Below are positions 8,181 to 49,690 of a DNA stretch of 64,000 nt, piece after piece (position 1 is the first letter of the stretch; the number at the start of each line of letters is the position of its first letter). The notes under the pieces are model-generated. The model was given only the letters and a program-made list of their open reading frames with translations, was not told where the DNA came from and did no database searches. The translations under genes and the position numbers were made by a program. Origin of the DNA: an uncultured Thermoplasmata archaeon (GTDB lineage Archaea; Thermoplasmatota; Thermoplasmata; JAGHBH01); the NCBI GenBank assembly GCA_964601625.1, contig CAZROC010000002.1, forward strand, positions 80,694 through 144,693, read 5' to 3'.

Positions 8181-8211
8181 CGAGAGCATGGACAGGCGTT
8201 TCCTTTTCTTC

Positions 8212-8628
8212 TCAAGTATTCTCCTCTTTGGTAGGTGTAGGATCTTTAATAACATCAGATGGATCAAATGTCGATAGGAAAAAGTTCTTTGTAAGCTTCA
8301 TTGCACCAGATGGGCATATGTCTTGACAGAGTGCACAGAAACAGCATTTTCCCAGATCTATCTTGGGATATTTCTTTGGATACTTGTCTCTGTATTCCCC
8401 AGGCGCCTCAACCATCTCTATAGCTCTGTTTGGACATATCTTAGAGCACAGACCGCATGATATGCATTTGTCTATATTAAATCTGTGCTCGCCTCTATAC
8501 CCATCTGGTATCGGGTTTGACTCATGTGGAAATCTCGTTGTTATAGGTTTTGAAAACATATTTCTGATTATCTTTGGAATTACTTCCGTTTTCATCTTAT
8601 CACCTATCCATATCAGCTGGACAGCCAT
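8212..8628 (-). CDS. nuoI: NuoI-like 2x[4Fe-4S] ferredoxin subunit
   Basis: 138 aa. Two CxxCxxCxxxCP motifs (CISCGLCSKICP, CCFCALCQDICP). Confidence 0.65.
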   Translation of the reverse strand: MAVQLIWIGDKMKTEVIPKIIRNMFSKPITTRFPHESNPIPDGYRGEHRFNIDKCISCGLCSKICPNRAIEMVEAPGEYRDKYPKKYPKIDLGKCCFCALCQDICPSGAMKLTKNFFLSTFDPSDVIKDPTPTKEENT

Positions 8629-14703: not shown

Positions 14704-17700
14704 CTAAATTTCATAATGATGTTTCGAATAACTCCCTTCTGTTATTTTTAGATTACCACTCTTTAAATCTCCGATTATATTTTGAATTTGTGTTTCAATG
14801 TCTCCTAGTTCTTTTCCTTCACTTGTAGTTATAAGAAAATCTGTAACGCCAAGTTTCTCATAAATTTTATATTTTTTAAACCATCTATTTTTATATAATT
14901 CATTATTTAAAAGTCCCAGATGCTCCCAATAAAACTCACCATTTTCTAGGAAAATTTTGAAATCCGGTTTTATATGGTACTCTGCCGTAAAGTCTTCAGG
15001 TTCATAAATAAATTCTATTCCAAGCGAATCTAGAGCTTTTGCAATTATGTATTCAATCTTGGATCTAACTGCAATCTTCTTGCCATTCTTTAATTGAACT
15101 AAATACGGTTTAAATGGACTTTGTTTATGACCGAACAAAAGTGTATGAATTAATTCAATTTGAGAATTAATATAAGCAGTTCTAACTAACTCATATAACT
15201 CTTCTTTTAACTCCTCATATACTAAAACATACATTTTCTTCTTTGCTCTAGTAAAGCCGGTATATAGTAATTCACGAGTTATAAACGATGACCTCTCAGA
15301 CAGAACAAAGAGCACATAATCAAAATCACTCCCCTGAGATTTATGAACCGTAATAGCATACGCAGGTGTATACGATATATCCGCTTTCTCAATTTGATTT
15401 AATAATTCTGATTTTATTTCTTTCAATTTATCCAATATTTTTTCTTTTGCTTTAGGGAATATGTTAAATAGGTCATCAATGTCAACAAATTTGACATATC
15501 CTCTCTTAGTTAAATATCCTATCGAGCCATTAGCTAAAGCAAGAATTCTTTTATTTTTTTCAATTTCCCAATACTGGTTTTCCTCGCAAATTATTTTAGT
15601 GCCTTCTGGAATCCTACTCTGTCCTTCAAGGATGATTTGTCTGTTTATCACAATGCTTCCAAACATCCCAACTCTTTTTGGAGTTATTATTTGAATTTTT
15701 TCTAGATTGTTATAATCAAACTTCCCATCAGGTTCGAAAATGTAACCAAATAATTTCCACAAACTTTCATTATTTTTTTGTTTACTCATCTCAAGGAGAA
15801 TTTGTCTTAACTTCTCTTTCAAATCGTTTGCATCTCTAAAATAATTTATCTCTAGTGTATCATCGGCTGATTTTGCTATATCATGTATGTCCTCTAATAA
15901 AGGTTCTTTGGCACCTCTAAACAATTCGGCTAATTCTTCTACTTTGGCACATTTGATACCATTAAATGGAAAGCGTAAGTTTGTACTTAGGTGACAATAT
16001 TTGCTTTCCAATCCCTGATTTTTAAGATGATATATAAGATCAATAAATGGTCTGCCAACACCTATGGGTGGAAGCTGTTTATCATCCCCTATGATTATCA
16101 AGTGCTGGACTGTAGAAGGATTTATTAGGCTGAATAAAAGGCAGAGAAGAACTTCGTCCACCATTGAAGCCTCATCAATTATAACAACTTTTGGATTAAA
16201 TTGCCAGTATCTTGCCAATCTATTGAAGTCATTTATAAATTCATATTGCCCCTCAAAGATTTTTGATGTAAGATCTACAAGCTTAAATATCTCGTTCCTA
16301 CGTTTATATGACAATCTTTTGGTTCTTTCAAATAATTCTCTATATATAAACCTATGAATTGTTGAAATTGTAATGCTTAAATCGTTGTCTAATCCCAGCT
16401 CTTTTAAACGCTTTCGAATCACCAAACTCGCTTTACCTGTGGGTGTAAAAATAAAAACAGGAGCTTTTCTTTGATTTTTGAATATATCGATTAGGTTAAG
16501 AATTGCAGAAGTTTTTCCGCTCCCAGCTTTTCCGCTTATAACAACCAATTTATTGCGAAGTATTTTTTGATAAAGTTCGTGTCTCTCTCTTATAAAATGT
16601 TTGTATGTGTTACTATCTCTAAGTTTATCTTTGAATTTCTCAACATCTCTACTTACTAAGGTGGATACAATATCTTGATCAATGGTGTATTCCACTCCCT
16701 TCACTTTTTTAATAAATTCTTCAATTATTCTCTCTATTTTTTCCATAGATTTTAGCTGATAAATTGTTTGATCATAGATGGAAATTATATTGAATATCTC
16801 TTTAAATCTTGGATTATTCTCATATTCACTTAATAGTAATTGATCAATTTCAAAATCCTGTTGAATGTAATATAAAGGATAATCTTTGATTTTCTCTAAA
16901 ATTTCATCTCTTGAGAGGTACGTATGTCCATCATTTTGGGCGGCGTTTCTAAGGATCAGGGTTATCAGAGCCCGAATTCTTTCCAAGGATTTAGCAGTGT
17001 ACAAAGCTCTCCAATTTGCATATCTCGTGTCAGGAATAAGTGCAATATCTAAGTGATAAACAGAAATGCCATAGTCATTGTTATCTATATCCCAATCATC
17101 GTCTTTGATATCATAAAAGTACTCTTCTAAAATAGAATATGGATTTGCTTTAAAATTTTTGAATCCTTTTTTGCCGATAAAATCAATTATGTTTTTGAAT
17201 TGTTGTTTTGAGAAATCAAAACGAGCTAAAAAAGTGAAAACTTCAAACTGTGACTTTATTATATTAATGGTGGTTTCTAACTCCCCATCTTCGCATTTTA
17301 AAGCGGTTATATTTTTCTCATCATTTAAAAACTCATCTATCGATCCAAACTTTTTGATGATAAACGTCTTTAGTTTTCTAATTATTTCTTCAATTTTATC
17401 ATCTCTAAAGTTATCTTTCAGCTTAATTGCAATGAGATTCTCAAAGCCTGGATACTGTTCTCGCTCTCTCCAAGCAATTTCTAATAATTTATCTACTTTT
17501 TTCTCATAATTTTCAATTTGTTCAATAGGAATAACTCCATGCTCTTTTAGCTTATTTATTGATTTTTTCAGTTTGTACAATAAGTAAATAGCTTTATCAT
17601 GCGTTAGATGCATTGAAACGTACTTGAAATGAGGTATTATAGTTGGGTCATCTACCTTTACGGTTATATCTTCTAACCATTTTTCCTTCTCTTCTCTTTT

Positions 17701-18411
17701 TATACCATCTTTTTTTTCTAGAAATTGTAGATACTCATGATATGGGAGTATAAATGTTAATTTAGGATCAAGAGGAACTTGAAATTGCCATGCGATTTTA
17801 GGGAAAACTGGCATTTTCCTATTTATATCCTCATACAATTCTTTTGGAATAGCATATTCTTTAGGAAATTCTATCTTCTCTCTTACTAAACCCACACCCA
17901 ATACCAAATATTTTCTCTCATCTCCAGTGATTGGATTGCTGTAATTCGCATAGAAAAAAACTATTGATTTAGACGATTCAATCTTTTTTATGTATTTTCT
18001 TACCCTATCCTCTAAATCAGGAGGATATTTATATGCTCCAGTGGTTGTAAATGATAACTTGAAATTCCACGTGAATGCTGAAAAAGGTTTTAATACTTCT
18101 TTAAGTGGCGGAACAACACTAAATTTATCCCATGTGTCTCCGAAGGGATGAATATCTTCTACGTTATATTCTTTCTCCCCAAGTACATTTATACACCAGT
18201 AGCAAGGTGGTGTATAATTTGCATTATCCTTTACTTCCGATATGGATCTTCCTTTAAATTTTTCTTCGATTTCAATATTTCTCCTTCTTTGGATTCTAGA
18301 AGATAAAAGGGAATAATTATCAACACAATAAACATTCTCAAATGGATTCTTACAAACTTTTCCGTTCCATTTGCTGTCGTGCCATGCAAATCTTATTGTT
18401 AGATGTTTCAT
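14704..18411 (-). CDS. Large superfamily-1 helicase-like protein (RecD/AAA_30-like core) with long N-terminal region
   Basis: 1235 aa. Walker A GKAGSGKTS, Walker B VIIDEASMVD, motif VI-like TVHKSQGSDFDYV. Sole gene of its cassette. Confidence 0.55.
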   Translation of the reverse strand: MKHLTIRFAWHDSKWNGKVCKNPFENVYCVDNYSLLSSRIQRRRNIEIEEKFKGRSISEVKDNANYTPPCYWCINVLGEKEYNVEDIHPFGDTWDKFSVVPPLKEVLKPFSAFTWNFKLSFTTTGAYKYPPDLEDRVRKYIKKIESSKSIVFFYANYSNPITGDERKYLVLGVGLVREKIEFPKEYAIPKELYEDINRKMPVFPKIAWQFQVPLDPKLTFILPYHEYLQFLEKKDGIKREEKEKWLEDITVKVDDPTIIPHFKYVSMHLTHDKAIYLLYKLKKSINKLKEHGVIPIEQIENYEKKVDKLLEIAWREREQYPGFENLIAIKLKDNFRDDKIEEIIRKLKTFIIKKFGSIDEFLNDEKNITALKCEDGELETTINIIKSQFEVFTFLARFDFSKQQFKNIIDFIGKKGFKNFKANPYSILEEYFYDIKDDDWDIDNNDYGISVYHLDIALIPDTRYANWRALYTAKSLERIRALITLILRNAAQNDGHTYLSRDEILEKIKDYPLYYIQQDFEIDQLLLSEYENNPRFKEIFNIISIYDQTIYQLKSMEKIERIIEEFIKKVKGVEYTIDQDIVSTLVSRDVEKFKDKLRDSNTYKHFIRERHELYQKILRNKLVVISGKAGSGKTSAILNLIDIFKNQRKAPVFIFTPTGKASLVIRKRLKELGLDNDLSITISTIHRFIYRELFERTKRLSYKRRNEIFKLVDLTSKIFEGQYEFINDFNRLARYWQFNPKVVIIDEASMVDEVLLCLLFSLINPSTVQHLIIIGDDKQLPPIGVGRPFIDLIYHLKNQGLESKYCHLSTNLRFPFNGIKCAKVEELAELFRGAKEPLLEDIHDIAKSADDTLEINYFRDANDLKEKLRQILLEMSKQKNNESLWKLFGYIFEPDGKFDYNNLEKIQIITPKRVGMFGSIVINRQIILEGQSRIPEGTKIICEENQYWEIEKNKRILALANGSIGYLTKRGYVKFVDIDDLFNIFPKAKEKILDKLKEIKSELLNQIEKADISYTPAYAITVHKSQGSDFDYVLFVLSERSSFITRELLYTGFTRAKKKMYVLVYEELKEELYELVRTAYINSQIELIHTLLFGHKQSPFKPYLVQLKNGKKIAVRSKIEYIIAKALDSLGIEFIYEPEDFTAEYHIKPDFKIFLENGEFYWEHLGLLNNELYKNRWFKKYKIYEKLGVTDFLITTSEGKELGDIETQIQNIIGDLKSGNLKITEGSYSKHHYEI

Positions 18412-18602: not shown

Positions 18603-19850
18603 TTATGTTCTATACTTTTTAATAAGGTCCACATTTTCATTATACCCCCGACATATATCGTTGAGAGGGCATTCTTCACACTTTGGTTCATCATGATTAT
18701 AACAATAATTGGTACCGATATACATGAGCCCATCATCAAAATCAGCTACCGAGAATTTATATCCATCTTGATGTAATTTATAAATGAGGAGATTTGGGAT
18801 TCTTTGTATTTCCACAGATCTAGGTCTTCCCATTTTTAGAAGCTCCCGTACCACAAATAGATATTCATTGAAAATCTCTGAGTTCTGAGGAATTCCAGTT
18901 GCTTTTCTGCCTCGGATATTAGTCACCCGTATGTAATTAACTCCACCTTTACCTTTTCCTTTTTGAATTACGTCCCATTTTTCATAATCCTTTAAAGAAG
19001 CCAATTCCAGAAGGAAACCGGTTCTAAATAAAACACGCCCAGCATTACTGTCGAAAGGAACTTCATATGAGAAATCCGTCCAACCATTATCTTCCGTTCT
19101 ATGTTTTACAAGTCTAAAAATACTAACATATAATTTAGCAAATAAATGGCAGGCTTTATCACCAATCGCACTTCCGAGACCGTATCTTTCATTATCTTTT
19201 AATTGTTGGGCCATAATTTCAGCCGATGGGTATGATTCCAGATAGTCAATTAAGGGTTGTGGAGAGATCTTACGTTGTGATTCTAAATCTTTCTCTAATA
19301 GTAATGGAACACATAAAGGCACACCCCACCTATGAATTGCATAATCCAATACTTGCTTGGTTGATATTATACCACGCATAGACTGAGCAAAAAATAAATT
19401 ATATTTGCTAGGTGATGATTTATTCTCTTTGGCCCAATCTTCTGCCCGTATTTCTTTAATTGATTCATGTTTAGATAATATTTCATCAATTGAAATGCCT
19501 AGCTCTTTAAAGAAATCCATTGGTCTGTGAAATATTCTAATTTCTTGTCTGTATAAACTGGTCGTTACATTTTTCAGTAGCTCTCTAACACCAATCATAT
19601 CTGGACCTTGATCTAGTACAACATTTACTAATAAATATCTGGTCAATATTTCCCGCCTTGTGAATTTACCGTCATATTCATCGAGCTCATCATATTTTAA
19701 AGTTCCATCCTTTTTAAAGTAATGTTTGAAAGGCTCTACTTCAAAAATAGGCGGCATCTCTCTTTCTTGGCTTCCGATCTCCGCTAATCTTTTCGCAAGA
19801 TCTAAAAGGAATTCCCAATCAATCATTTTTATCACTCCATTTTTCACCAT
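18603..19850 (-). CDS. HhH-GPD-like protein with Fe-S-cluster-loop-like Cys motif (putative DNA glycosylase; candidate restriction partner of the adjacent MTase)
   Basis: 415 aa. GLGSAIGDKACHLFAKL and FDSNAGRVLFRTG resemble HhH/GPD elements. C-terminal C-x7-C-x2-C-x5-C (CYNHDEPKCEECPLNDIC) resembles the EndoIII FCL. Confidence 0.35.
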   Translation of the reverse strand: MVKNGVIKMIDWEFLLDLAKRLAEIGSQEREMPPIFEVEPFKHYFKKDGTLKYDELDEYDGKFTRREILTRYLLVNVVLDQGPDMIGVRELLKNVTTSLYRQEIRIFHRPMDFFKELGISIDEILSKHESIKEIRAEDWAKENKSSPSKYNLFFAQSMRGIISTKQVLDYAIHRWGVPLCVPLLLEKDLESQRKISPQPLIDYLESYPSAEIMAQQLKDNERYGLGSAIGDKACHLFAKLYVSIFRLVKHRTEDNGWTDFSYEVPFDSNAGRVLFRTGFLLELASLKDYEKWDVIQKGKGKGGVNYIRVTNIRGRKATGIPQNSEIFNEYLFVVRELLKMGRPRSVEIQRIPNLLIYKLHQDGYKFSVADFDDGLMYIGTNYCYNHDEPKCEECPLNDICRGYNENVDLIKKYRT

Positions 19851-20595
19851 TAACCCACTTAAATAAGCTCATTTGGACTTTAGATATTCTCTCTTTAGCA
19901 AACTCATAGTATTCAGGGACAATTTCAAACCCTAAATAGTGTCTTCCCAACATTTTAGCTACTACTGCTACCGTACCTGAGCCCAAAAAAGGATCAAAGA
20001 CTATGTCTCCCTCATCACTACTAAACAGAAGTATCTTTTTTACTAGTTCCACAGGTAATTTTGTTGGTGTTTTGATCTTTCCTGTCCAATACTCCCTATT
20101 AATTATCCATACATCTTCTGGATAATGTTCAATTTTATTGAACTTATATTTTTTCTCATCCTTAACCACAAAAAGAATATGATAATGACTTGTAACATAT
20201 TTTCTTTTTGTAAAAACTCCAAATTGATATTTCCATATTAAATGGTTTATTGTTATAAAGCCTACCTCATCCAGTGCATTAAGAATATCTTTTAGATTTG
20301 TCCACCCAGAGAAAACATACATACTTCCTGTTTTTTTCAAAATCCTATAGGCTTCTTTCATCCAATTTACTGTAAAATCATAATATTTTTCTTTGGGAAT
20401 CTCGTTATAACCTTCAAGGACCCTCTCCTGCGTCCTATTGTAATTATTACGTTTTGCTTTAAAATCAATGGCGAAAGGTGGATCTGTTACAATTAAATCT
20501 ATAGATTCTGAGGGTATGTCTTTCATTAGTTCTAATGCGTCACCACAATATATTTCGTCAATTTGAAACCTACCTATTTTTTTCGTTTCAGTCAT
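19819..20595 (-). CDS. DNA methyltransferase, beta class (N6-adenine or N4-cytosine)
   Basis: 258 aa. Motif IV DPPF (LIVTDPPFAIDF) precedes motif I FDPFLGSGTVAV, which is beta-class order. Confidence 0.75.
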   Translation of the reverse strand: MTETKKIGRFQIDEIYCGDALELMKDIPSESIDLIVTDPPFAIDFKAKRNNYNRTQERVLEGYNEIPKEKYYDFTVNWMKEAYRILKKTGSMYVFSGWTNLKDILNALDEVGFITINHLIWKYQFGVFTKRKYVTSHYHILFVVKDEKKYKFNKIEHYPEDVWIINREYWTGKIKTPTKLPVELVKKILLFSSDEGDIVFDPFLGSGTVAVVAKMLGRHYLGFEIVPEYYEFAKERISKVQMSLFKWVNGEKWSDKND

Positions 20596-22809: not shown

Positions 22810-22975
22810 AGCCGAATTTCACTTAACGTCTTGGGGATATACGACGTTCGCCGATAGGCGAATGTCCCGAAGGGCGGGGCAGTAGCCCCAGCGTATATCC
22901 TCCTGTTAAGTGACCGAAGCCCGATAGGGGCTGAGGCAGGAAGCCAACGGGCTTCCGAAGAGTCGGGGGCGTATG
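22810..22975. repeat. attC-like cassette repeat (copy 8)
   Basis: GAATTTCACTTAACGTCTTGGGGATATACGACGTTCGCCGATAGGCGAA...GCGTATATCCTCCTGTTAAGTGACC. CACTTAAC and GTTAAGTG are perfect inverse boxes. Confidence 0.7.
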
Positions 22976-22992: not shown

Positions 22993-24381
22993 TTATCCGT
23001 TATTTTCATAGGAGACCGCCTTTTTTGAAATATTTGTATTGATATCATTCGATTGTATAGAATCTATCCATCTCTTTGTTATTTGCAACCTTTTTCCAAT
23101 AGGACCTTTTAAAATGTTAATTGAAGTCGTCTCTGGAATTACTGTCAGCGATTGCTCAAAAGCCAACATATAATTTGCACCCAAATTGATTAATATTTCA
23201 TCATATTCTTTTTTAGATAAAAGTTGGGAAAACTCTCTATAAATGGAATATTTTAATTGCTCTGCTCTTTCTTTCGTCATTATTTGGTCATAATTACGGA
23301 TTGGGGTAAGTGGATCTATTAATCCATATTTTGCCGATAAGATCTTGATGTCTAATCCATTTTCATTTGTAAAATCTGTTATTCTTTTTCTCAATAATCT
23401 ATAAATTGGGCCATCATATAAGTTGATTGCTGGAATCAAACCTTCAACATCCCTTTTGGCTTTGGAGCATGAGACAATTAAAAGTCTATTTTTATTTAAC
23501 CACTCCTGGGATTTTGAGAGTATTTTATTATTTATAAATTCCCGCACTTGTCTAAATCTTTCCGTTTGTGCTTTCTTATCTCCACGTTTTTTTGACCTAA
23601 CATCATACTGAAAAATCCAACCTTTATAATCACTTCCAAATACAGAATGTCTAATAAATATATCTTGTCTTTTTGGGGAATAGCAACCTAAAGCAAAAAT
23701 CATCCCGTCTTGATCTATTTCTCTGATTGATGAAAGAATATCCTCTAAAAGAGATTCATCTCTGACATGCACGTATCTAGCGCTGTTTTCTTTCTTTTTC
23801 AACAGCCCTCCTATACCAATATATTTATAACCCATCTTTTTTAATTCTAAATAGCATTCTAAATAATCTTCTTTTGTAACTCCTTGAGCAACTCCCATTA
23901 AATTGAAGGTCCATTCTCTGCGATTGTATATTCTAATAGCCTCTTTTGCACTATTTAGAGTTCGTTCTTTATCTTTGAGATAATCCATAATAATTCCATA
24001 ATCTACACCGAGACTCTCATAAATTTCAAATAATTTTTCATAACTTGAATACATACACCCCTCTTTGGTAAAAACTCCAGAATCACAGATCGTAACAAGA
24101 TTTTTCTTTATTTTTTTCCCTAATTCGCATCTAGATAAATCCTGTTCATAAGGACACTTTTTATTCCCAATGACCGCACATGCTTCGGGATTCACACAGG
24201 GATATTTTTTGAACAATTCTTGAAAGTTTTTATGTGTATTTGCATGGGTCATTAAGCCATATCTTTTCCCATCTGGAGGTATAATTCCACTAATTATCCT
24301 AAGGGATGCTTGCCTATCTACAACAAAAAATGGAGTGAATGAGGAAAGACTCTTGTCCTTACTCTCTGTTCCTTGCCGCAT
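22993..24381 (-). CDS. tRNA-guanine transglycosylase (TGT)/DpdA-like TIM-barrel protein with unknown C-terminal domain
   Basis: 462 aa. ICDSGVFT (compare TGT DSGGFQ), FNLMGVAQG (compare LFGIVQGG), YIGIGGLL (compare AIGGLSVGE). Confidence 0.45.
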   Translation of the reverse strand: MRQGTESKDKSLSSFTPFFVVDRQASLRIISGIIPPDGKRYGLMTHANTHKNFQELFKKYPCVNPEACAVIGNKKCPYEQDLSRCELGKKIKKNLVTICDSGVFTKEGCMYSSYEKLFEIYESLGVDYGIIMDYLKDKERTLNSAKEAIRIYNRREWTFNLMGVAQGVTKEDYLECYLELKKMGYKYIGIGGLLKKKENSARYVHVRDESLLEDILSSIREIDQDGMIFALGCYSPKRQDIFIRHSVFGSDYKGWIFQYDVRSKKRGDKKAQTERFRQVREFINNKILSKSQEWLNKNRLLIVSCSKAKRDVEGLIPAINLYDGPIYRLLRKRITDFTNENGLDIKILSAKYGLIDPLTPIRNYDQIMTKERAEQLKYSIYREFSQLLSKKEYDEILINLGANYMLAFEQSLTVIPETTSINILKGPIGKRLQITKRWIDSIQSNDINTNISKKAVSYENNG

Positions 24382-26200
24382 TTATAATCCTCTCGTTTGC
24401 ATCGTTTGCTTTAGCAGGTATTGGAACTCCTTTCAGTCCTGTTGCATCGTGGCTTATAATAAGCCAATGCCCAGGTCTAAAAGTAAAAGTAGGGGATAAT
24501 TGTTCTTCACCTATTCCAAACGCTTCAGCTACTCTCTGCCGATCGTATGAACGGGGTAGTTTGCTAACAAAATAGGTATGAAGGTTTCCCATAACTTCTG
24601 TGTCCAGCAATGAAGCTCTTTGAGTTGAAATACCAATCCCTAAACCAAACTTTCTCCCTCTTCGAGCAAGTGTTACACAGAATTCCTTAATCTGTCGTGT
24701 CTGTTCATTCCCACCTTCTCCTGGGATGAAGATATCCGCCTCATCAAATAGAAAAAGAGTGTGCGGTTCAATTATGCCTTCTCTCCTTCTGCTTTCATAA
24801 AGCTGATTTCCCATAACTTCTGAAAATACTTTTAAGTCGGAATCTCTTCTGGCAGTAACAATTATTGTCATTTGTCTGTCCGGGTTATTCAAAGCATTGA
24901 TTAATTCTCTAGTTGATATTATTGCATTAGAAGGAATTTCTGCCAGATTTCTTCTCAGCCTCTCTAATGCCCGAATCGTCCTCTCGATAACTCCAGAAGC
25001 AGTTCCCTCTTGTGAACGATGTAACCTTGTCAATGGCCGCCTCACAGGATTTCCAATTTCATTGACGAAATCAAGTGCTTGTTGAAGAGTGTCCGTTGTT
25101 ATGGGTGTATCAAAATATCTTAGTATCCATTCATCCATAGCTTCTTGTAGAGCTTCCCGCACTGCTGGGCCAGCACGAGGATCAATTTGGTTTTGCATTT
25201 CACTTCGAATTAAAGCGGCTAAATCTTGAGCAGGTAAAACTATTCTAGTTCGATTTAACGCTGATGAAACACCCCTATCCATATAATCATTGATATCTGG
25301 ATTGTTTTTCAAACGAGATGGTAGGTTCATTTGTCTTCTTAAAAGATTTACTAAATCAGGATTTTCGCCTGGCCTATTTCCTAATTCTCGGATTATTGGT
25401 AATGGTAAAGAGTCCGTTCCCACATGGATATAATACAGATCATTTGGATGAGATACAAAATGGTCGATTAGCAATCCCAAATATTCGTCATTAGGGTCAA
25501 TGATAACAATGTTTGAATTGTCTGTTGTGTTATTCGAAAGAGAAGTAACCATTGAGGATACTAGATTTGATTTCCCTACCCCAGTAAACCCAAAAATTCC
25601 AAAATGAGTGGTTAATAATGCCTCTTTATCAAGTTTGACGTTCAGTTCTTCAAACTTTTTATGATAAAATGGAGACTCTGGTTGGTCTAACATCCCTTGA
25701 TTTATTATTGAATCCACCATTTCCATGCTAAGGGGTCTGACTTCAGCGCCTACCATCGGCAGATTTTTCTCATCAGTGAGGGAAGGTAATTCGTTGTCTC
25801 TAGGATTATAGGTAAACTGCCATCCAGTAGATACCGATTTGGCTACAATTGTAGTGGTAAGTTGAAGTGGGTGTTCCTCTTGTCTTTCCCAGTCCTCTTT
25901 AATACCTCGCATGGATTCGAATACATGCCCAGGATACGTCCCCTCACCTTGGTTAGCGAAGTGTGTAGGATATACTTGAGTAAGTGTTAAAACGGAATAA
26001 GTTTTAGAACTCCCTGACGGGGGAGTGTAGTTTTCGACAGCTACTAAGTCCCCAACTTGGAGAGCATCCAAACCTTTTCTTGTGTATTGACACCAAATCT
26101 CAAACTCAAATCTGCCCTGTTTGTCTGGAGTCATTTTCACGAGGGCGGATCGCCCTCCATATAGTTTTTCCTCATCAAATGGATTGCTCATTTTAGCCAC
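24359..26200 (-). CDS. HerA/FtsK-superfamily ATPase (HerA-like, DUF87-type)
   Basis: 613 aa. N-terminal barrel (GRFEFEIW...VGDLVAVEN), Walker A GIFGFTGVGKSN, Walker B LFLFDEADIFIP, ISTQRASLLD. Confidence 0.7.
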   Translation of the reverse strand: MAKMSNPFDEEKLYGGRSALVKMTPDKQGRFEFEIWCQYTRKGLDALQVGDLVAVENYTPPSGSSKTYSVLTLTQVYPTHFANQGEGTYPGHVFESMRGIKEDWERQEEHPLQLTTTIVAKSVSTGWQFTYNPRDNELPSLTDEKNLPMVGAEVRPLSMEMVDSIINQGMLDQPESPFYHKKFEELNVKLDKEALLTTHFGIFGFTGVGKSNLVSSMVTSLSNNTTDNSNIVIIDPNDEYLGLLIDHFVSHPNDLYYIHVGTDSLPLPIIRELGNRPGENPDLVNLLRRQMNLPSRLKNNPDINDYMDRGVSSALNRTRIVLPAQDLAALIRSEMQNQIDPRAGPAVREALQEAMDEWILRYFDTPITTDTLQQALDFVNEIGNPVRRPLTRLHRSQEGTASGVIERTIRALERLRRNLAEIPSNAIISTRELINALNNPDRQMTIIVTARRDSDLKVFSEVMGNQLYESRRREGIIEPHTLFLFDEADIFIPGEGGNEQTRQIKEFCVTLARRGRKFGLGIGISTQRASLLDTEVMGNLHTYFVSKLPRSYDRQRVAEAFGIGEEQLSPTFTFRPGHWLIISHDATGLKGVPIPAKANDANERIINAARNRE

Positions 26201-28040
26201 CTCTATTCTGCCTCAATGTTCTACTAAGGGGATTTGCACGATTTAACCTCTCAGAAGACCTAAGCATAGGTTCTACCATCTTCAGAACCGATTTTGCACC
26301 CCGGTCTGCATGATGTAAAGGATCTGGATAGCCAATTACCTCTGGGAACACATTCCTAGTTAATACTGAGAGTATATATATGGTTATTTCTTGTTCTTGA
26401 TTTTCAACTCTTTTGTCTTTATGAAAAAACGGCTCGAGGGTACCTAAATCTTGGTCTCCCTCAGTTATTTTTATCCTTCTAGGAGGAGGATTGCTAGGGT
26501 GAACCAAACGATCAACGAAAATAACATGTCCCATAATCGGTTCCATTGGTGGGTTACGACTTAAGTGAAACTGAACTAGAGACTTCATTATGAGATTTGG
26601 TGGAACTAAAACATCACCGCGAACACCTTGAATTTTAGGCTTATCTGAACCCCAATCCTTTTTCAGTCGGAGTGTCATAAAGACCGAGTCAAATTCGGTT
26701 GAACTCCAAGGCCCATTCAATTCTCCATCAATAAAGGGCAATCTTTCCAAAGTCAGTCGGTCTGTAGCAGGAATAAGTCTAGGAGTGAAATTAAATTCAC
26801 CAATATGCCGTAATACTCCAAAGTAGTGATTAGTGAAATAAGTTGAAGCAGAATCTTTTACCACGCCGATAAACATTACGCCGTTTCGCCAACACTCCTC
26901 CATAGTAAAACGTAACCCGATAGCTAATAAGAACGACAATTCATCTGAGGATAGAAATCTGGTTCTTTCTAAGCCGTTTTCATCCTCATAAGTATAAAGT
27001 AAAACCGTTGGATCTTTCTCTTTAAAGAATTGGTCAGTAAAATGTAAATACAAACGTTTTATTTTGGCTGGAGAGTTTTGATATTCGGGATTGAGACTAA
27101 GAAGGGTCCTTTCTTTTTTCACAAGAGCATCGGGTGGATTAGAATTATCATGTTTTTTTCCATATTTATCACATTCCCACAGGATCTTTAGCTGTCCTAT
27201 TACTTTTTGCAAGGGAATCTTAGTTTCCTCTGCAAATTCTGCCAAATCAAGAGAATGTTCCTCATTTTGGTAGATCTTAGCAATGGCCCTCTCCCATAAT
27301 CTGTGGGCTTTTTTCGAAGGAACATCAAGTTCTTCATTCCACGGTTTAGAGTAACCAACCAATAAATCAGGATACCATATTGTTTCCCCTGCAATTTTCA
27401 CACCAGCAAACCTAAGATTCCTAACGTTGGGTGTTGCATTGGCCAATACTGAAGATAAGGAATGGTCCCATAAAATAAGATGGGGCCTATCCAAACCTGA
27501 CGCACCTCTATAACACAAATAGTTTTCTGCTAAGAGCATAAGGGATGTGTCTAATCCGGAAATTGAGATTCTCTCCGAGTCATTCACAACGAATCTATTT
27601 TCTGGTTCAATGGTTGTCAAATCTTCAGGAGTTAATGGTAAATACGCGACTAAACTACTATCATCTTCAGGCTCCGACTCTCGATATGTGAGCAGAGGAG
27701 GATTGTCCTGAAGACCTAACTCCCCTTTAACTACGTAAGCGCCCCCATAAAAGATTGCCATATCTGCAGTCTCGATTTTCTTACATGCACCATCAATCGC
27801 CCAAAACCTCAATGTGCTACTACGGTGCCGTTGTTGCAGTTCTCGATGTAATTCACGTCTATATGCTTCATTTATAAATAAATTATAGTAAGAAACAATG
27901 TGATTTTTTAGAAATTCATCATAAAATATTTGGAGTTCTCTCGTGCCCTCTTCAATTCTCTGTTCCAACCTACTTCTGGTCTGGGATAAGGCTTTATCAT
28001 AAAGTCCAAATATGTCTGAGATCGTTTCTCTTCTAGTCAT
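26193..28040 (-). CDS. large hypothetical protein, operon partner of HerA-like ATPase (possible nuclease)
   Basis: 615 aa. Overlaps ATPase gene by 8 nt. Weak FWAIDGAC motif reminiscent of NurA DGS. No firm domain call. Confidence 0.35.
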   Translation of the reverse strand: MTRRETISDIFGLYDKALSQTRSRLEQRIEEGTRELQIFYDEFLKNHIVSYYNLFINEAYRRELHRELQQRHRSSTLRFWAIDGACKKIETADMAIFYGGAYVVKGELGLQDNPPLLTYRESEPEDDSSLVAYLPLTPEDLTTIEPENRFVVNDSERISISGLDTSLMLLAENYLCYRGASGLDRPHLILWDHSLSSVLANATPNVRNLRFAGVKIAGETIWYPDLLVGYSKPWNEELDVPSKKAHRLWERAIAKIYQNEEHSLDLAEFAEETKIPLQKVIGQLKILWECDKYGKKHDNSNPPDALVKKERTLLSLNPEYQNSPAKIKRLYLHFTDQFFKEKDPTVLLYTYEDENGLERTRFLSSDELSFLLAIGLRFTMEECWRNGVMFIGVVKDSASTYFTNHYFGVLRHIGEFNFTPRLIPATDRLTLERLPFIDGELNGPWSSTEFDSVFMTLRLKKDWGSDKPKIQGVRGDVLVPPNLIMKSLVQFHLSRNPPMEPIMGHVIFVDRLVHPSNPPPRRIKITEGDQDLGTLEPFFHKDKRVENQEQEITIYILSVLTRNVFPEVIGYPDPLHHADRGAKSVLKMVEPMLRSSERLNRANPLSRTLRQNRGG

Positions 28041-28099: not shown

Positions 28100-28255
28100 C
28101 ATACGCCCCCGATTTCACTTAACGGATTGCGGGTATCTGAAGTCGCCGAAGGCGATTTGGGTGAGGGCTGAAAGCCCGAACCAGATACCCGCTTGTTAGG
28201 CGTGGGCAATAGCCCCGAAGTGAGCGATAGCGAACGGAGAGTCGTGAGCAAAAGG
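28100..28255. repeat. attC-like cassette repeat (copy 9)
   Basis: CCGATTTCACTTAACGGATTGCGGGTATCTGAAGTCGCCGAAGGCGATTTGGGTGAGG...CCAGATACCCGCTTGTTAGGCGTGG...AGTCGTGAGCAAAAGG. Confidence 0.7.
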
Positions 28256-39829: not shown

Positions 39830-39965
39830 CGTCGCCCGCAATTTCGGACAACGTTCTGGGCATATCCGAAGTTCCGAGCGGAGCGAGGAATTTGGACGGA
39901 GCGTCAGCGAAGTCGGATATGCACCTGTTAGGCGACCCGAAGGGCAAGGCTGTGAGCGCAAAATT
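39830..39965. repeat. attC-like cassette repeat (copy 12)
   Basis: CGTCGCCCGCAATTTCGGACAACGTTCTGGGCATATCCGAAGTTCCGAGCGGAGCGAGGAATTTGGACGGAGCGTCAGCGAAGTCGGATATGCACCTGTTAGGCGACCC. Internal stem GCATATCCG/CGGATATGC. Confidence 0.7.
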
Positions 39966-41067
39966 ATATTTCAATACCAATGGGATATGCATCTATATGT
40001 CCCTCCTTCCAAAGTTTTGCTGGATCAGGAATCTTTTCTATTTTTGCATTTTTTGTTCCAGCACCATAAACCCTATAAATGTAAAATTTATCTCCTTTTT
40101 CTTTCATTAATCTCCATTGATCTTTTGACACTTGGAACCAAGCTTTTTCGTATTCCTTTGTGGATTTAACCTCGATAAAAATCTCATCTCCATATTCTGT
40201 AATTTTTATGTCATAGTGCTGTCCACTTTCTCCGTTTTTATTTAACCATATTACTTCTACAATTACACTACCATCTTTTTCTAATTTAAAGCCTTGCTCA
40301 GTATCCAATAAAGAGGTGTCGGGATACTTTTTTCTCATTTCATCTTTAATGCACCTAAGAGCATATTCTTCTCCCCATCGTCCAATATCTTCTTTGGCTT
40401 TTTTACTCAAGACTCCGGTAGATTGTGCCCAATCTCCATGTGGTCTGGTTGCGGACTTTTTATCTGAAAGTTTTACCTTCTTCTCTGTTGTTTCTTCTTT
40501 TACTTCTTTAGGAGCATATTCTTCTACATTGATGGGAACATCTTTTGGAGAAAATTCTGGAGTCCATTCTTTTTCTTTTGTTTCATCTAAAATATCTTCA
40601 TCGGTTGAGATAACTGTTTCTCCTGCCAATCCTGACAAATCTTGAGTTGAGGTTTCTGCTGGTATTTGGGTGATTTTTTCAATCTCTGCTTTCTCTTCTG
40701 CGGAGTAAACTTCTTTCGATTCACTCTCTAACAATTGCTTTTCTTTCTCTGCTTTTTCTACTGTTTCTATTTCTTTAATTTTAGAGACCCTTTTTAAAAT
40801 TCTTTCTTCGGATTTGGGCAAGGCCTCTATATTTTTAACACTCATTATATTCTCTGCATTGGGGCTATTACTCATTATATTCATTATAAAATCATCAAGA
40901 CCCTTGATTTCACCAAATACTTTAGAGAACTCCACTGCGAGGTCGTATATGCTACCATCACTCTTCATATATATACAATTCTTGTCCTTATGGAAAATAC
41001 ATGTTTTTTCAGCTTCTTTGTTTATTTCTCTCCATTCATTGACCTTTATTGAATATCTTACTCCCAA
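39964..41067 (-). CDS. PD-(D/E)xK-like (DUF3883-like) C-terminal domain protein
   Basis: 367 aa. C-terminal D...EVK (DIKITEYGDEIFIEVKST) restriction-endonuclease-fold motif. Glu/Lys-rich middle. Confidence 0.4.
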   Translation of the reverse strand: MGVRYSIKVNEWREINKEAEKTCIFHKDKNCIYMKSDGSIYDLAVEFSKVFGEIKGLDDFIMNIMSNSPNAENIMSVKNIEALPKSEERILKRVSKIKEIETVEKAEKEKQLLESESKEVYSAEEKAEIEKITQIPAETSTQDLSGLAGETVISTDEDILDETKEKEWTPEFSPKDVPINVEEYAPKEVKEETTEKKVKLSDKKSATRPHGDWAQSTGVLSKKAKEDIGRWGEEYALRCIKDEMRKKYPDTSLLDTEQGFKLEKDGSVIVEVIWLNKNGESGQHYDIKITEYGDEIFIEVKSTKEYEKAWFQVSKDQWRLMKEKGDKFYIYRVYGAGTKNAKIEKIPDPAKLWKEGHIDAYPIGIEI

Positions 41068-44000
41068 ATTGTCAGTAACATAAACTTTAATTTCTCCAGT
41101 TTTTCAAGCACACTCTTCTCCTTGAGTTTTTCATATTCTTCATTTTCCTCCCAGTAAAGGTATCGTAAAACATACGGTATGATATCTTGAATGAGTTTGG
41201 TACGTTTATCATCTTTTGAGAATGTTGTCTTTTCTACCAAAGGCTCAATCTCCACATTTTCAGATAAATAATGGAGGTCACAAGCTTTAATGAAGAATTT
41301 TATTTTATCTGGATGATAGCCATCCGGTAGCCAGAGAAAACCGATATTTTCCTCATCTTTGAATAATTCATAAAGCTCATTATTATCGTTTATGAAAATA
41401 TCTCCACCGTTAGACCAGAAATCACCTTTATTAATAAGAAAAATCGATTTTTTGATAAAATCATTCCACCAATCTTCCTTAGATATAGGATTTTCAATTT
41501 TATCTGGATCTGGATTCAAGTTACGGTTTAGTTCTTCGTATATTCTTATGATTATCTTCTTATCCTCATCAGATATGTGACTTTTCTCGGATATAGAATA
41601 CAAAACATCCGCATAGTCTTTCGGCGTGGGTTTTTCACTTATACCAATCTTTTCCACAAAGAATCTTCTGAATTTCGAATAATATTTCTCAAGATATATT
41701 CTATTTTTACCAAAAATATTGCTAACATCTTTCCATATAACTTCCCCGCCACTGTAGTAATTTTTATCTGTATCAGGAATAAAAATCAAAGAATTTTGCT
41801 TAAATGCTTCTTTGATTTTAGTGGCATCCTCCCAAAAATGTTCATCTAAGAATCTATATAACTTTTCAAATTTCTCTTTATCTTTACTTTCTTGCTTAAC
41901 AAGGACTTTTAGGTAATTTAAAACGCCCTCTACGCTGGCTTGCGTATTGATGCCCAGAGTTCTAATAAAATCTTCATTTTCAATTTTTACCGCTAAGTAT
42001 GGAACAGTGTCGCCTAAAACTTCGCGGATTTCTGGTTTATCCAAAAATACCTCTGACGGTTTTGCTAAAGTATTTTGAGTTGTTGGGAGCCATGAAGTAC
42101 TTTTAAGTAAATGGACCCATGTAGAATCTGTATGAGCAGAATACCAGGCATAATATTGCCATTTATAAGTTAAATCTTTATATTTTGATATTTCAGACCA
42201 TTGTTTTTGTAGCAACCTTAAGAGGTGGATCATCTTTGATTTTTCACCACGGTTAAGTATTCTATCTAGAAACTCAATAGTATAATCTTCAATTTCTTGA
42301 CTTGTATAATCCCAAGAGGGATTATAACGAGAGCTGTAGTAAGTATTACTTCTTCTTAATTTTTCTTTCTTATCTGCTGATAAATAGCTTCCATCACATC
42401 TAATTACTCGCAATCCTGAATCCACTCCCATTTTCAAGAAAAAGTCTCTCCATTCTCTAATCTTTTTCTCTTTTTCTTCTTTTAGGTCTATAATCTTCTT
42501 TTCTATTTTCTTTACTTCTTTTCTATGTTTCTTTTTCCACTTCTTACTTTTCCCCTGTATTTTGTTTTTTAACTCCAAAATTTCATTATCAATTCGTTTT
42601 AACTCTTGTTCAAGATAACAGAAATGCGCGAAACTTACATCTATACCTTCAAATAACGTCTCTAAATCATTTTCGTTTCCATAACTCCTTGGCAAATATA
42701 CATTCTCTGGATAGTTATACTGTTTTTCTCCTTCATCATCTTTATTAATACGAATACGAAGCGATTTTTTAAGACGTTTTAATGGATCTTCTTTAGTTTC
42801 CCAAGATGCTTTATTGGCATTTAACCTTCTATCGCTTTCTCTTTCGTATTTGTCTGTATTATCTTTGATATACATAACATATCCGATAAGAGTCCTTGAA
42901 TCTTTTTGTTTCCAATCTTCACTTTCATAAACGGGCAAAATATGATCTTCAATGATTTCGTAAGGGTGTGCTTGTTTAAGTCCTAATCTCTGGAGGAATT
43001 CTGAAATTATTTTATCTCTCTCTTCTTTCTTCCGCTTTGAAATAGTATCTATAATATCCCTTTTAATTATTCTGAGCTCATCTTCAAAGCCATATACTGC
43101 TTTTCTCTCCAGCGGGAAGAATACAGCACCTTTATTTATAGATGTCAGTTCTCCATTTTCCAATTTTATAATCTCTAAACTCCTAAGTCGTTCTAAGTGC
43201 TCATCAGATAGCTTTTTCTTGCTAAGATAGTTAAATAGCTTTGCAAACCATTCTTCATTCTTGTTTTCGATCCATTCCTTGTTCTCCAGACACTTAATTA
43301 GGTCATCAATTGAAAAATCATTAACTCCCAGTTTTTGAAGAACTTGCCTTTTAGCCTTTATCTTATCCGATAGATATTCTTTTCCAAAAAATTTCTGGAG
43401 ATCTTCGTTGGTTACTATTTCTTTTATTTCATCATCACCAATTAAAACCTCTGAAGGTCTCTTCCACTTATTTGTTTTTGTCAAAATACATGCTTCCTCC
43501 TTAAGTCTCTCATATATTTGTTCTACTACTGGTAAAAAGAAATCGTCTTTTATTTCTTCTTTGAGAGGAAGATAATTGTAAAAGTTGTATTTTAAATTTT
43601 CATCATTTTTGAATTCTCTAACAGCATCTAGAAATACTCCAATAATGGAATCCCTCAGCCACATGTTCCATCTATTATCATCTTTCTTTATATCCTCTCG
43701 GTCCCCTGTTAAAAGAAAATCTGCTTGGATGATAAACTTAAACCCATATTTATTAATTGGAAGAAAAGCGAAAACAAATTGCTCTTCCGATGTTTTCGAA
43801 TTGCCGCTATTTTCAAGAGGAAATGCTAAAATTATTTCAGTAGTATCAACATCAACCTCTTTCATCATTTGATTTTTGAGATAAACTTTCAACTCAGTGG
43901 GTATTGTCATTTGTTTCTTAACAACTCTCCATCTTTGTTCATTACTGTTATGTAATACCCAAATTTCATTTCTCTTCTTTTCTTTTTTAAAGTACATACT

Positions 44001-45816: not shown

Positions 45817-45819
45817 ATA

Positions 45820-47658: not shown

Positions 47659-47667
47659 CTCAATTTT

Positions 47668-49689: not shown

Positions 49690-49690
49690 C

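What the first reader, a model, noticed from the sequence alone, without database searches (positions are those of the whole stretch)
22993..28040. Three-gene cassette: TGT/DpdA-like base-exchange enzyme + HerA-family ATPase + 615-aa unknown protein, a candidate novel DNA-modification/defence module
The three genes overlap head-to-tail and form a single cassette between repeat copies 8 and 9. The first product carries three TGT signature elements (DSGxF, L.G.AQG, IGIGGL) like queuine/archaeosine TGTs and DpdA, plus an unassigned C-terminal domain. The second is a clear HerA/FtsK-type ATPase with an N-terminal barrel. The third is large with only a weak NurA-like AIDG motif. HerA-family ATPases partnered with effectors are a recurring anti-phage theme. 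Dpd uses a TGT paralog to put 7-deazaguanines into DNA. I am not aware of the combination TGT-like + HerA, and it sits in a mobile cassette.
Basis: partly seen in the sequence, partly recalled or inferred. Interest (0 to 1): 0.8.

Follow-up and report, generated by a model that had tools for sequence, protein, structure and literature searches.

The report
Deazaguanine-type DNA-marking plus NurA–HerA defence cassette
One cassette of an archaeal integron carries a three-gene operon: a NurA-like nuclease, a HerA motor ATPase, and an enzyme fusing a DpdA-like DNA base-exchange domain to a DpdC-related domain. It most likely acts as an undescribed restriction-modification-type antiviral system that marks host DNA with a 7-deazaguanine base.

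Summary
Three overlapping minus-strand genes (26193-28040, 24359-26200, 22993-24381) fill one 5.2-kb cassette between two attC-like repeats of an archaeal integron.

- **The second protein is an intact HerA ATPase.**

The set recurs in 19-20 of 34 genomes that carry the fusion family, in archaea and bacteria. DUF6884 is either fused or a separate neighbouring gene. Elsewhere the same TGT-DUF6884 gene ends DISARM-like DrmA-DrmB-PLD operons in which a motif scan found no methyltransferase. It also ends SIR2-ORC/Cdc6 operons. In two loci it lies next to QueC/QueD or queuosine-salvage genes.

Best reading (about 0.5): a Dpd-like modification module with NurA-HerA as the restriction arm, analogous to TdpAB. 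I found no description of this system. PADLOC and Pfam have no model for the nuclease. No chemistry was tested. I class it as a new variant of a known kind.

The parts
28117..28201 (-). Upstream attC-like recombination site. It ends the preceding cassette. Its R' core GTTAAGT marks the start of this cassette.
   Evidence: Repeat families D1/D2/D9/D10; sequence read; inverted-arm scan.
26193..28040 (-). Gene A: 615-aa NurA-fold nuclease of a rare, unnamed clade. Candidate active-site residues are D83 (AIDG), E172, D192, and the C-terminal GYPDPLHHAD motif (H576, D579).
24359..26200 (-). Gene B: 613-aa HerA/FtsK-type hexameric ATPase. Walker A is GFTGVGKS (res 204-211, nt 25568-25591). Walker B is LFLFDE (res 482-487, nt 24740-24757).
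   Evidence: Pfam DUF87 2.4e-18. PADLOC HerA 'Type III coevolved' 2.1e-49. PDB HerA chains 9x1l_A 1e-11, 8yho, 8j4u, 4d2i. Motifs conserved at 95% or more across 20 partner HerAs.
23512..24339 (-). Gene C, N-terminal domain (res ~15-290): DpdA-like TGT-superfamily TIM barrel. It carries D100 (general acid/base), F104, D133, Q166-G167, G191-G192 and D251 (nucleophile). It also has an inserted Cys cluster (C62, C68, C76, C85).
   Evidence: sequence and profile hits to DpdA/7ui4. (fold). (invariant residues). (DpdA catalytic residues from PMC10164549).
23050..23487 (-). Gene C, C-terminal domain (res ~299-444): DUF6884. Both family motifs are present: CxxxK (C305-K309) and LSAxxG (L348-G353). It is distantly related to YaaA/DUF328, the family of DpdC.
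   Evidence: Pfam PF21818 4.3e-13 and PF03883 1.1e-6. PADLOC PDC-M57A 8.6e-9 and DpdC 0.001. Profile against YaaA 5caj 0.28. Motif description in PMC11701544.
22993..24381 (-). Gene C as a whole (462 aa), the last gene of the operon.
   Evidence: AF2 model pLDDT 88.
22821..22911 (-). Downstream attC-like site closing the cassette. R'' is ACTTAAC and R' is GTTAAGT, perfectly complementary.

Best explanation
The cassette most likely encodes a self-contained restriction-modification-type defence system with two arms.

**Modification arm (gene C, inferred from homology).**
- The DpdA-like barrel would flip a guanine out of host DNA and displace it through a covalent Asp251-deoxyribose intermediate. 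Asp100 would act as the general acid/base.
- A 7-deazaguanine base would then be installed. The most likely base is preQ0, which archaea generally make for archaeosine (general knowledge; not checked for this host).
- The fused DUF6884 domain is a DNA-binding relative of the YaaA/DpdC fold. It would either process the inserted base, as DpdC converts dPreQ0 to dADG, or help flip and locate target sites.

**Restriction arm (genes A and B, inferred by analogy).** A HerA hexamer would translocate and unwind DNA into the NurA-like nuclease, and DNA lacking the mark would be degraded. The mark on host DNA would block loading or translocation, as I recall phosphorothioate doing for the NurA/HerA-like TdpAB complex. 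HerA's ATPase might also supply the ATP-dependent step that DpdA needs from DpdB.

**Shown versus inferred.** Shown here: folds, conserved catalytic residues, operon structure, cross-genome co-occurrence, and module swapping. Inferred: the substrate (DNA), the base inserted, and how self is told from non-self.
For: 2. The DpdA residues D95, F99, D130, H181-G182, G206-G207 and D256 (PMC10164549) align with D100, F104, D133, Q166-G167, G191-G192 and D251. All are invariant in 53 homologues.
3. The second domain belongs to the wider YaaA/DpdC fold group and keeps both DUF6884 motifs. TGT-like and DUF6884 occur either fused or as separate genes in the same operon (L017, L022, L024, L025, L027, L029, L032, L033, L041). 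This fusion/fission pattern links the two functionally.
4. A is a NurA and B an intact HerA. NurA-like + HerA lie directly upstream of the TGT-like gene in 19-20 of 34 genome loci. These span Euryarchaeota, Thermoplasmatota and Bathyarchaeia, and bacterial Planctomycetota, Aquificota, Chloroflexota and Actinomycetota.
5. The TGT-DUF6884 gene sits where a modification gene would be expected in other defence operons.
   - DrmA + DrmB + PLD (the DISARM core) in L018 and L023, and DrmA + DrmB in L039. A motif scan found no methyltransferase in these loci.
   - SIR2-ORC/Cdc6 + a 334-aa protein in L011, L042, L025, L027 and L004.
   - A DruE/DpdJ-like helicase-MZB-PLD in Archaeoglobus.
6. There is a direct link to 7-deazaguanine metabolism. 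QueC (3e-67), QueD/PTPS (8e-23) and a Q_salvage gene lie immediately upstream of the TGT-like gene in L039. A Q_salvage gene lies immediately upstream of NurA-HerA-TGT in L017.
7. In L012, NurA-like and HerA are fragmented while TGT-DUF6884 is intact. That is the decay pattern expected when the nuclease arm is the dangerous one.
8. The neighbourhoods are defence-rich: McrBC-like genes, HEPN/MNT, Fic, a type III REase and ThsA hits. The gene set is carried in an integron cassette.
Against: - No chemistry was tested. Nothing here shows that DNA is the substrate or that a deazaguanine is inserted.
- C scores far below NCBIfam's DpdA cutoff (42.8 against 200 bits).
- C lacks the C-terminal structural Zn site conserved in TGTs and DpdA (PMC10164549).
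- There is no DpdB homologue.
- DUF6884 is only distantly related to DpdC (PADLOC DpdC E 0.001). Its one studied member, YfjM, was linked to abasic or ribonucleotide lesions rather than nitrile chemistry (PMC11701544).
- The window has no preQ0 synthesis genes. Only 2 of 34 loci have que or salvage genes nearby.
- SIR2-type partners usually act through NAD depletion after sensing, which fits a sensor role for C as well as a marking role.
- The absence of methyltransferases in the DISARM-like loci rests on a crude motif scan.
- The TdpAB mechanism used as the analogy comes from my memory of An et al. 2025. That paper could not be read here.
Confidence: 0.5

Rival explanations
1. Modification-dependent (type IV-like) or damage-generating defence. 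C does not mark host DNA. Instead its TGT-like domain excises guanine, or a 7-deazaguanine that viruses put in their DNA, from invading DNA. DUF6884 binds the resulting abasic or flipped site. NurA-HerA then enters at the lesion and degrades the invader.
For: The TGT mechanism passes through a covalent glycosyl-enzyme intermediate that could resolve as a glycosylase reaction (PMC10164549). The DUF6884 member YfjM was recovered as a binder of abasic and RNA-base lesions and is modelled flipping a base (PMC11701544). The variable partners (NurA-HerA, DrmABC, SIR2-ORC) are also what a shared sensor with interchangeable effectors would look like. 7-Deazaguanine-modified viral genomes exist, including archaeal viruses (PMC6884629).
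Against: A pure excision or sensor role does not explain que or salvage genes next to the TGT-like gene. Those genes supply a free base to insert. An intact C beside decayed NurA/HerA in L012 suits a harmless marking enzyme better. C also appears to replace the methyltransferase in DISARM-like operons.
Confidence: 0.17
2. Protein-directed deazaguanylation. C acts like Cap10 of type IV CBASS and attaches a 7-deazaguanine derivative to a partner protein (NurA, HerA or itself) to prime or regulate the nuclease machine, not to modify DNA.
Confidence: 0.06
3. Mobile DNA-repair module. NurA-HerA carries out end resection as in archaeal double-strand-break repair. C is a repair glycosylase or lesion binder that feeds damaged DNA to it.
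For: Canonical archaeal NurA-HerA is a repair pair. YaaA and YfjM are linked to oxidative or lesion responses. A UDG gene is present elsewhere in the window.
Against: There are no Mre11/Rad50 neighbours. The NurA clade is rare: 288 representatives in 1.84 billion proteins. The system is patchily spread across distant archaea and bacteria. It is carried in an integron cassette among defence-type genes. C also partners with DISARM and SIR2 modules.
Confidence: 0.07

Closest known systems
Dpd system (DpdA/DpdB/DpdC modification plus DpdD-K restriction; Salmonella Montevideo)
   Same: Both have a TGT-superfamily enzyme nearest to DpdA with the same catalytic and base-binding residues. Both pair it with a second enzyme from the wider YaaA/DUF328 (DpdC) fold group. 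Both have an R-M-like layout with helicase or nuclease partners, and some relatives of C are adjacent to DpdJ/DruE-like helicase-PLD genes. Both are linked to preQ0 genes.
   Different: There is no DpdB ParB-like ATPase and no DpdD-K set in the cassette. The second domain is DUF6884 rather than DUF328, and here it is fused to the transglycosylase. The canonical C-terminal Zn site is missing. The restriction arm is NurA-HerA. The hosts are mostly archaea. C scores 42.8 bits against the 200-bit DpdA equivalog cutoff.
TdpABC (phosphorothioate-based system of thermophiles; TdpA HerA-like, TdpB NurA-like)
DISARM (DrmA, DrmB, DrmC plus a methyltransferase)
   Same: In L018, L023 and L039, relatives of C are encoded in or next to DrmA-DrmB(-PLD) operons. 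They occupy the place of the DISARM methyltransferase.
   Different: The window's cassette has no Drm genes. The proposed modification chemistry is base exchange, not methylation.
Canonical archaeal/bacterial NurA-HerA end-resection complex, and HerA-scaffolded defence systems (Sir2-HerA, DUF4297-HerA)
   Same: HerA hexameric ATPase with a partner nuclease. A has the NurA fold. B matches solved HerA chains, including those from Sir2-HerA complexes.
   Different: It is not linked to Mre11/Rad50. The NurA is twice the usual size (615 aa) and belongs to a rare clade. There is no Sir2 or DUF4297 effector in the cassette. A TGT-DUF6884 gene is always attached.
BRC (BREX-related capture) systems with HerA + GNAT + TGT (PMC12839542)
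   Same: HerA/FtsK translocase and a TGT homologue occur together in a predicted defence locus.
   Different: BRC has seven components (PglZ, a BrxC-like protein, a STAND NTPase, DUF4007, and others). It has no NurA, and the paper states that no DpdC homologue was detected. TGT is present only in a subset of BRC loci.

Membership tests
TGT superfamily / DpdA-like DNA transglycosylase | TIM-barrel fold closest to TGT or DpdA structures | tested here: met
TGT superfamily / DpdA-like DNA transglycosylase | Three active-site aspartates (general acid/base, base-binding, nucleophile) plus the Gly-rich base-binding loops | tested here: met
   D100, D133, D251, Q166-G167 and G191-G192 align to DpdA D95, D130, D256, H181-G182 and G206-G207. 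All are invariant in 53 sequences.
TGT superfamily / DpdA-like DNA transglycosylase | Structural Zn site (Cys/His cluster C-terminal to the barrel) | tested here: not met
   There are no Cys or His residues in the segment after D251. A different Cys4 cluster (C62, C68, C76, C85) sits in an N-terminal insertion and is absent from the Archaeoglobus-type subgroup.
DpdA (NCBIfam NF041059 equivalog) | Score at or above the curated cutoff (200 bits) | tested here: not met
   42.8 bits, covering res 138-199 only. C is a relative of DpdA, not an orthologue.
Dpd system | DpdB ParB-like ATPase and DpdC (DUF328) accompany DpdA | tested here: not met
   No DpdB hit in the cassette. The second domain is DUF6884, with only a weak DpdC/YaaA signal (PADLOC DpdC 0.001; PF03883 at 28.8 bits, just under the 29.6 cutoff).
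Dpd system | dPreQ0 or dADG present in host DNA | not testable with these tools
   This needs LC-MS/MS of DNA.
DUF6884 (PF21818) | Pfam score above the gathering cutoff, with CxxxK and LSAxxG motifs | tested here: met
   50 bits against a cutoff of 30. C305-K309 and L348-G353 are present. C305, K309, S349 and G353 are invariant. Motifs are as described in PMC11701544.
NurA nuclease | NurA (RNase H-like) fold | tested here: met
NurA nuclease | Conserved acidic catalytic residues (D-E-D plus a C-terminal H/D) | tested here: inconclusive
   D83, E172, D192, H576 and D579 are invariant. Residue-by-residue equivalence to NurA was not obtained, and the C-terminal motif lies in a low-confidence part of the model. 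Pfam NurA does not hit A. A faint NurA hit is on record only for a different NurA-like partner protein in L007.
HerA ATPase | DUF87/HerA central domain with Walker A/B, and similarity to solved HerA proteins | tested here: met
   PF01935 2.4e-18. PDB HerA chains down to 1e-11. Walker A/B and Arg residues conserved. The N-terminal HAS barrel was not tested.
Housekeeping NurA-HerA repair operon | Linkage with Mre11 and Rad50 | tested here: not met
   The cassette contains only three genes. No Mre11 or Rad50 genes appear in the related loci that have gene tables.
TdpABC | TdpA/TdpB orthology and a TdpC phosphorothioation enzyme | tested here: not met
Integron gene cassette | Bounded by attC sites with R''/R' cores and inverted inner arms, in an array next to an integron-type tyrosine recombinase | tested here: met
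   attC-like sites at 22821-22911 and 28117-28201. At least 16 related repeats between 10.7 and 52.4 kb. The integrase at 52507-~53445 scores 239 bits on NF040815 (cutoff 220) and 229.7 on TIGR02249 (cutoff 265).

The most novel reading that the evidence does not exclude
TGT-DUF6884 is a portable base-exchange DNA-marking module that stands in for methyltransferases in several otherwise unrelated defence architectures (NurA-HerA, DISARM-like DrmABC, SIR2-ORC/Cdc6, helicase-PLD). It would put 7-deazaguanine marks into cellular chromosomes of archaea, where I know of no report of 7-deazaguanine in chromosomal DNA, as well as several bacterial phyla. The NurA-HerA form would be a minimal three-gene system that spreads as an integron cassette.
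Probability: 0.4. Interest if true: 0.8.

Novelty: new variant of a known kind. Interest (0 to 1): 0.68.

Why it matters
- **A second family of DNA-guanine transglycosylase systems.** If the reading is right, this one is compact (three genes) and concentrated in archaea. It would extend 7-deazaguanine DNA marking from phages and a few bacteria to archaeal chromosomes.
- **A general NurA-HerA mode.** Alongside TdpAB, it would make NurA-HerA a modification-gated restriction machine in general.
- **Swappable modification modules.** The module swapping with DISARM-like and SIR2-ORC operons would give a concrete case of a non-methyl modification module moving between restriction or effector arms.
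- **Cargo of archaeal integrons.** It shows that archaeal integrons, like bacterial ones, can carry whole multi-gene defence systems as single cassettes.
- **Testable now.** Cultured carriers exist (Methanolobus tindarius DSM 2278, Methanoculleus bourgensis MS2), and the catalytic residues to mutate are defined.

Tried and rejected
**Searches that returned nothing**
- Exact-sequence look-ups of P0061 and P0001 were not on record. The host domain was inferred from flanking genes instead.
- A viral-contig scan with the C family found no relatives. C is therefore not a phage anti-restriction DpdA.
- Literature searches for DUF6884, DpdA+HerA, HerA+NurA+DUF328, HerA+NurA+transglycosylase, 7-deazaguanine+NurA and DpdA+archaea+YaaA found no description of this gene set. 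The Tdp paper (PMID 39820821) is not held, so what I say about TdpAB's mechanism is from memory.

**Methods with limits**
- My first two attC-finding scripts were too strict and found none or two sites. The relaxed version still misses several repeats that the repeat finder shows, so I give no exact cassette count.
- The methyltransferase motif scan is crude. It found the window's known N6/N4 methyltransferase as a positive control, but it is not a proper profile search.
The mad3, mad8 and CARF6 hits among neighbours could not be traced to loci.

**Ideas rejected**
- The trio as housekeeping DSB repair.
- Identity with Dpd, Tdp, DISARM or BRC.
Full report
**1. What is in the sequence**

Between 22993 and 28040 the minus strand carries three long ORFs that overlap head to tail.
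- A is 26193-28040 (615 aa).
- B is 24359-26200 (613 aa, overlapping A by 8 nt).
- C is 22993-24381 (462 aa, overlapping B by 23 nt).

Two attC-like repeats flank the block, at 28117-28201 and 22821-22911. Read on the coding strand, each starts with an R''-type ...TAAC core and ends with GTTAAGT. The inner arms are complementary and the spacers unequal. The repeats are 5,206 nt apart, and the three genes are the only long coding sequences between them.

**2. Context: an archaeal integron**

- At least 16 related repeats are spread from about 10.7 to 52.4 kb. They separate minus-strand genes of 31-42% G+C, while the flanks are 50-57% G+C.
- At 52507-~53445, on the same strand, lies a tyrosine recombinase (Pfam Phage_integrase 2e-45). 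It scores 239 bits on NCBIfam [quoted passage not shown] (cutoff 220). It scores 229.7 on the integron-integrase subfamily model (cutoff 265).
- The flanking genes are archaeal: flap endonuclease-1 (fen_arch, 507 bits against cutoff 352), pelota, a wyosine Taw2 enzyme, and GGGP-type prenyltransferases.
- Other cassettes encode a probable R-M pair, a UvrD/RecD-like helicase, a PLD nuclease and similar proteins.

**3. Protein A is a NurA nuclease**

- A hits nothing in Pfam, PADLOC, NCBIfam or PDB by sequence or profile.
- Its family has only 78 entries in the word-indexed search, all of them uncharacterised. One is labelled "NurA domain-containing" by UniRef.
- An exhaustive profile search of 1.84 billion representatives found 288 relatives, 96 of them at E<=1e-30.
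- An AlphaFold model built on 36 homologues (pLDDT 80, pTM 0.81) matches several NurA or NurA-like chains:
These suit an RNase H-like active site, but I could not map them residue by residue.

**4. Protein B is an intact HerA**

- Pfam DUF87 hits at 2.4e-18. The best PADLOC hit is a HerA model labelled "Type III coevolved", at 2.1e-49.
- Solved HerA chains match down to 1e-11.
- Walker A (GFTGVGKS, res 204-211), Walker B (LFLFDE, res 482-487) and several arginines are conserved at 95% or more in 20 partner HerAs.

**5. Protein C is a two-domain fusion**

The N-terminal domain is DpdA-like.
- Residues ~135-250 hit PADLOC DpdA (4.8e-12) and NCBIfam DpdA (2.9e-11, 42.8 bits, far below the 200-bit cutoff).
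- A profile of 53 homologues finds only the DNA preQ0 insertase DpdA (7ui4, 8.6e-6) and, weakly, YaaA (5caj, 0.28) in the whole PDB.
- The DpdA paper names D95 (general acid/base), F99, D130, H181-G182, G206-G207 and D256 (nucleophile) as the active site (PMC10164549). In the HMMER alignments these correspond to D100, F104, D133, Q166-G167, G191-G192 and D251 of C. All are invariant across the family.
- The canonical C-terminal Zn site is missing. Most members instead have a four-Cys insertion (C62, C68, C76, C85).

The C-terminal domain (res ~299-444) is Pfam DUF6884.
- It scores 50 bits against a cutoff of 30, and both family motifs, CxxxK and LSAxxG, are present.
- Pfam's curators describe DUF6884 as a distant relative of YaaA, with a DNA-binding cleft and a predicted base-flipping mode (PMC11701544).
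- YaaA's family, DUF328, is the family of DpdC, which converts dPreQ0 to dADG in DNA (PMC12839542; PMC10164549).
- C therefore unites relatives of both Dpd modification enzymes in one polypeptide.

**6. Conservation elsewhere**

- Homologues of A sit next to a DUF87 protein and a DUF6884 protein in Thermoplasmatota and Methanomassiliicoccales genomes. The same holds in Methanolobus tindarius.
- A scan of one genome per species with the C family returned 34 loci. HMM searches of their ORFs show NurA-like + HerA directly upstream of the TGT-like gene in 19 loci, plus one more cut by a contig end. These cover Methanoperedens, Methanolobus, Methanophagales, Bathyarchaeia and Thermoplasmatota. They also cover bacterial Pirellulaceae, Planctomycetaceae, Aquificales, Desulfurobacteriaceae, Dehalococcoidia and Acidimicrobiia.
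- In nine loci DUF6884 is a separate small gene. It lies upstream of the NurA-like gene in six (L017, L024, L029, L032, L033, L041) and after the TGT-like gene in three (L022, L025, L027). This fusion/fission pattern ties the two domains to one function.
- In L012 the nuclease and ATPase genes are broken while TGT-DUF6884 is intact.
- No relatives were found in viral contigs.

**7. Alternative partners of the TGT-DUF6884 gene**

| Partner module | Loci | Evidence |
|---|---|---|
| DISARM core: DrmA, DrmB and a PLD protein | L023 (Heimdallarchaeota): DrmA 1.3e-77, DrmB 1.6e-24, PLD. L018 (Thermoplasmata): a Helicase_C-domain helicase, DrmB 7.9e-25, PLD. L039 (Nitrosopumilus salarius): DrmA 1.6e-74, DrmB 6.8e-33 downstream | |
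| ~830-aa SIR2 + ORC/Cdc6-like protein and a ~334-aa unknown | L011, L042, L025, L027 precede it. In M. tindarius (L004) this pair flanks the same TGT-DUF6884 gene on the side opposite NurA-HerA | |
| DruE/DpdJ-like helicase with MZB and PLD domains | Archaeoglobus (L005) | |

In L023 and L018 the TGT-DUF6884 gene is the last gene of the operon and overlaps the PLD gene by 4 nt. A motif scan found no methyltransferase in any of these loci, although it did detect the window's own N6/N4 methyltransferase. The scan is crude. Taken at face value, C occupies the slot that a methyltransferase fills in DISARM.

**8. Link to 7-deazaguanine metabolism**

- In L039 the genes immediately upstream of the TGT-like gene are a Q_salvage-family gene (6e-16), QueC (3e-67) and QueD/PTPS (8e-23).
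- In L017 a Q_salvage gene (1.9e-15) lies directly upstream of NurA-like-HerA-TGT.
- The window itself has no such genes. Archaea generally make preQ0 for archaeosine (PMC6884629), but the host's pathway could not be checked.

**9. Interpretation**

The best-supported model is a restriction-modification-type system.
- C marks host DNA by exchanging guanine for a 7-deazaguanine. DUF6884 acts on or beside the flipped base.
- NurA-HerA destroys unmarked DNA.
- The precedent for a modification-gated NurA/HerA-like machine is TdpAB. I cite its mechanism from memory, because the paper is not held. Its existence and the three-gene tdpABC layout are confirmed by PMC12914056 and by the PDB entry hit.

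I put this at about 0.5.

The main rival (about 0.17) is that C is a sensor or glycosylase acting on invader DNA. It rests on YfjM's lesion binding and on the interchangeable effectors. It does not explain the que and salvage genes or the orphan-C decay pattern.

Lesser rivals are protein deazaguanylation like Cap10, and a mobile repair module.

**10. Comparison with known systems, and novelty**

- It works like Dpd on the modification side and like Tdp on the restriction side, but it is a member of neither. C fails the DpdA equivalog cutoff and lacks the Zn site, there is no DpdB and no DUF328, and A and B have no sequence-level match to the TdpAB chains.
- It is not the canonical repair NurA-HerA, because there is no Mre11 or Rad50.
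- It is not the 7-gene BRC system, which does combine HerA with TGT.
- The trio hits no PADLOC system, and only a stand-alone DUF6884 candidate (PDC-M57A) is represented there.
- None of the literature searches found the trio.

I therefore class it as a new variant of a known kind: known modules and a known logic, in an undescribed and widely conserved combination.

Interest is moderately high. The system is testable in cultured methanogens. It would place deazaguanine DNA marking in archaeal chromosomes. It would also show a non-methyl modification module being exchanged among defence architectures.

Noticed in passing
window 10700-53500: The low-GC middle of the window is an integron-like array in an archaeal genome. 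It has at least 16 attC-like repeats and minus-strand cassettes. An XerA/integron-type integrase lies at 52507-~53445 on the same strand as the cassettes, not divergent from them. Flanks are 50-57% GC and cassettes 31-42%.
   Followed up: partly
window 44884-50860: The stretch between two attC-like repeats holds three class-II aminoacyl-tRNA-synthetase-like paralogues (310, 612 and 673 aa) and an iron alcohol dehydrogenase. The 673-aa paralogue is fused to glutamyl-tRNA-reductase-N and shikimate-DH domains. This is an unusual combination, possibly a tRNA-dependent biosynthetic cassette.
   Followed up: no
window 18603-20595: An N6/N4 DNA methyltransferase (258 aa) overlaps a 415-aa protein with no Pfam hit. 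This is probably a type II restriction-modification cassette.
   Followed up: no
window 14704-18411; 39964-44660; 51059-52348: Other cassettes with defence-like content: a 1235-aa UvrD/RecD-type helicase; a 1200-aa sacsin-like HATPase with a 367-aa NOV_C protein; and a PLD/NgoFVII-like nuclease in the cassette nearest the integrase.
   Followed up: no
L004 4387-12808 (Methanolobus tindarius DSM 2278): A single TGT-DUF6884 gene is flanked on one side by NurA-like + HerA. On the other side, convergently, lie the ~334-aa protein and the SIR2-ORC/Cdc6 protein that partner with it in other genomes. Two effector modules may share one marking enzyme.
   Followed up: partly
L039 2146-16674 (Nitrosopumilus salarius BD31): The locus carries an integrase fragment, Q_salvage, QueC, QueD, then TGT-DUF6884 split into two overlapping ORFs (8092-8379 and 8297-9394; a frameshift or sequencing error). 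A 638-aa unknown, DrmA and DrmB follow. It looks like a Dpd/DISARM hybrid island.
   Followed up: partly
L012 2564-7303 (Methanolobus MAG); L031 5170-10267 (Methanotrichaceae MAG): These are decayed copies. In L012 the NurA-like and HerA genes are fragmented while TGT-DUF6884 is intact. In L031 the TGT-like gene is interrupted by about 1 kb carrying an opposite-strand ORF, and the NurA-like gene is truncated.
   Followed up: no
loci L010-L042, neighbours of the system: The PADLOC census of 116 neighbouring ORFs gave three hits each to mad3, mad8 (MADS system) and CARF6 models. It also gave single hits to a type III REase, SoFic, BrxH and ThsA.
   Followed up: no
window 23146-23310 (C residues 358-412) and homologues P0153, P0163: There are weak hits of the DUF6884 region to DUF5591 (E 0.16; precomputed PF17884 on two homologues). 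From memory, DUF5591 is a domain found with archaeosine-pathway TGT-like proteins. This may hint that the region acts on a preQ0-type base.
   Followed up: no
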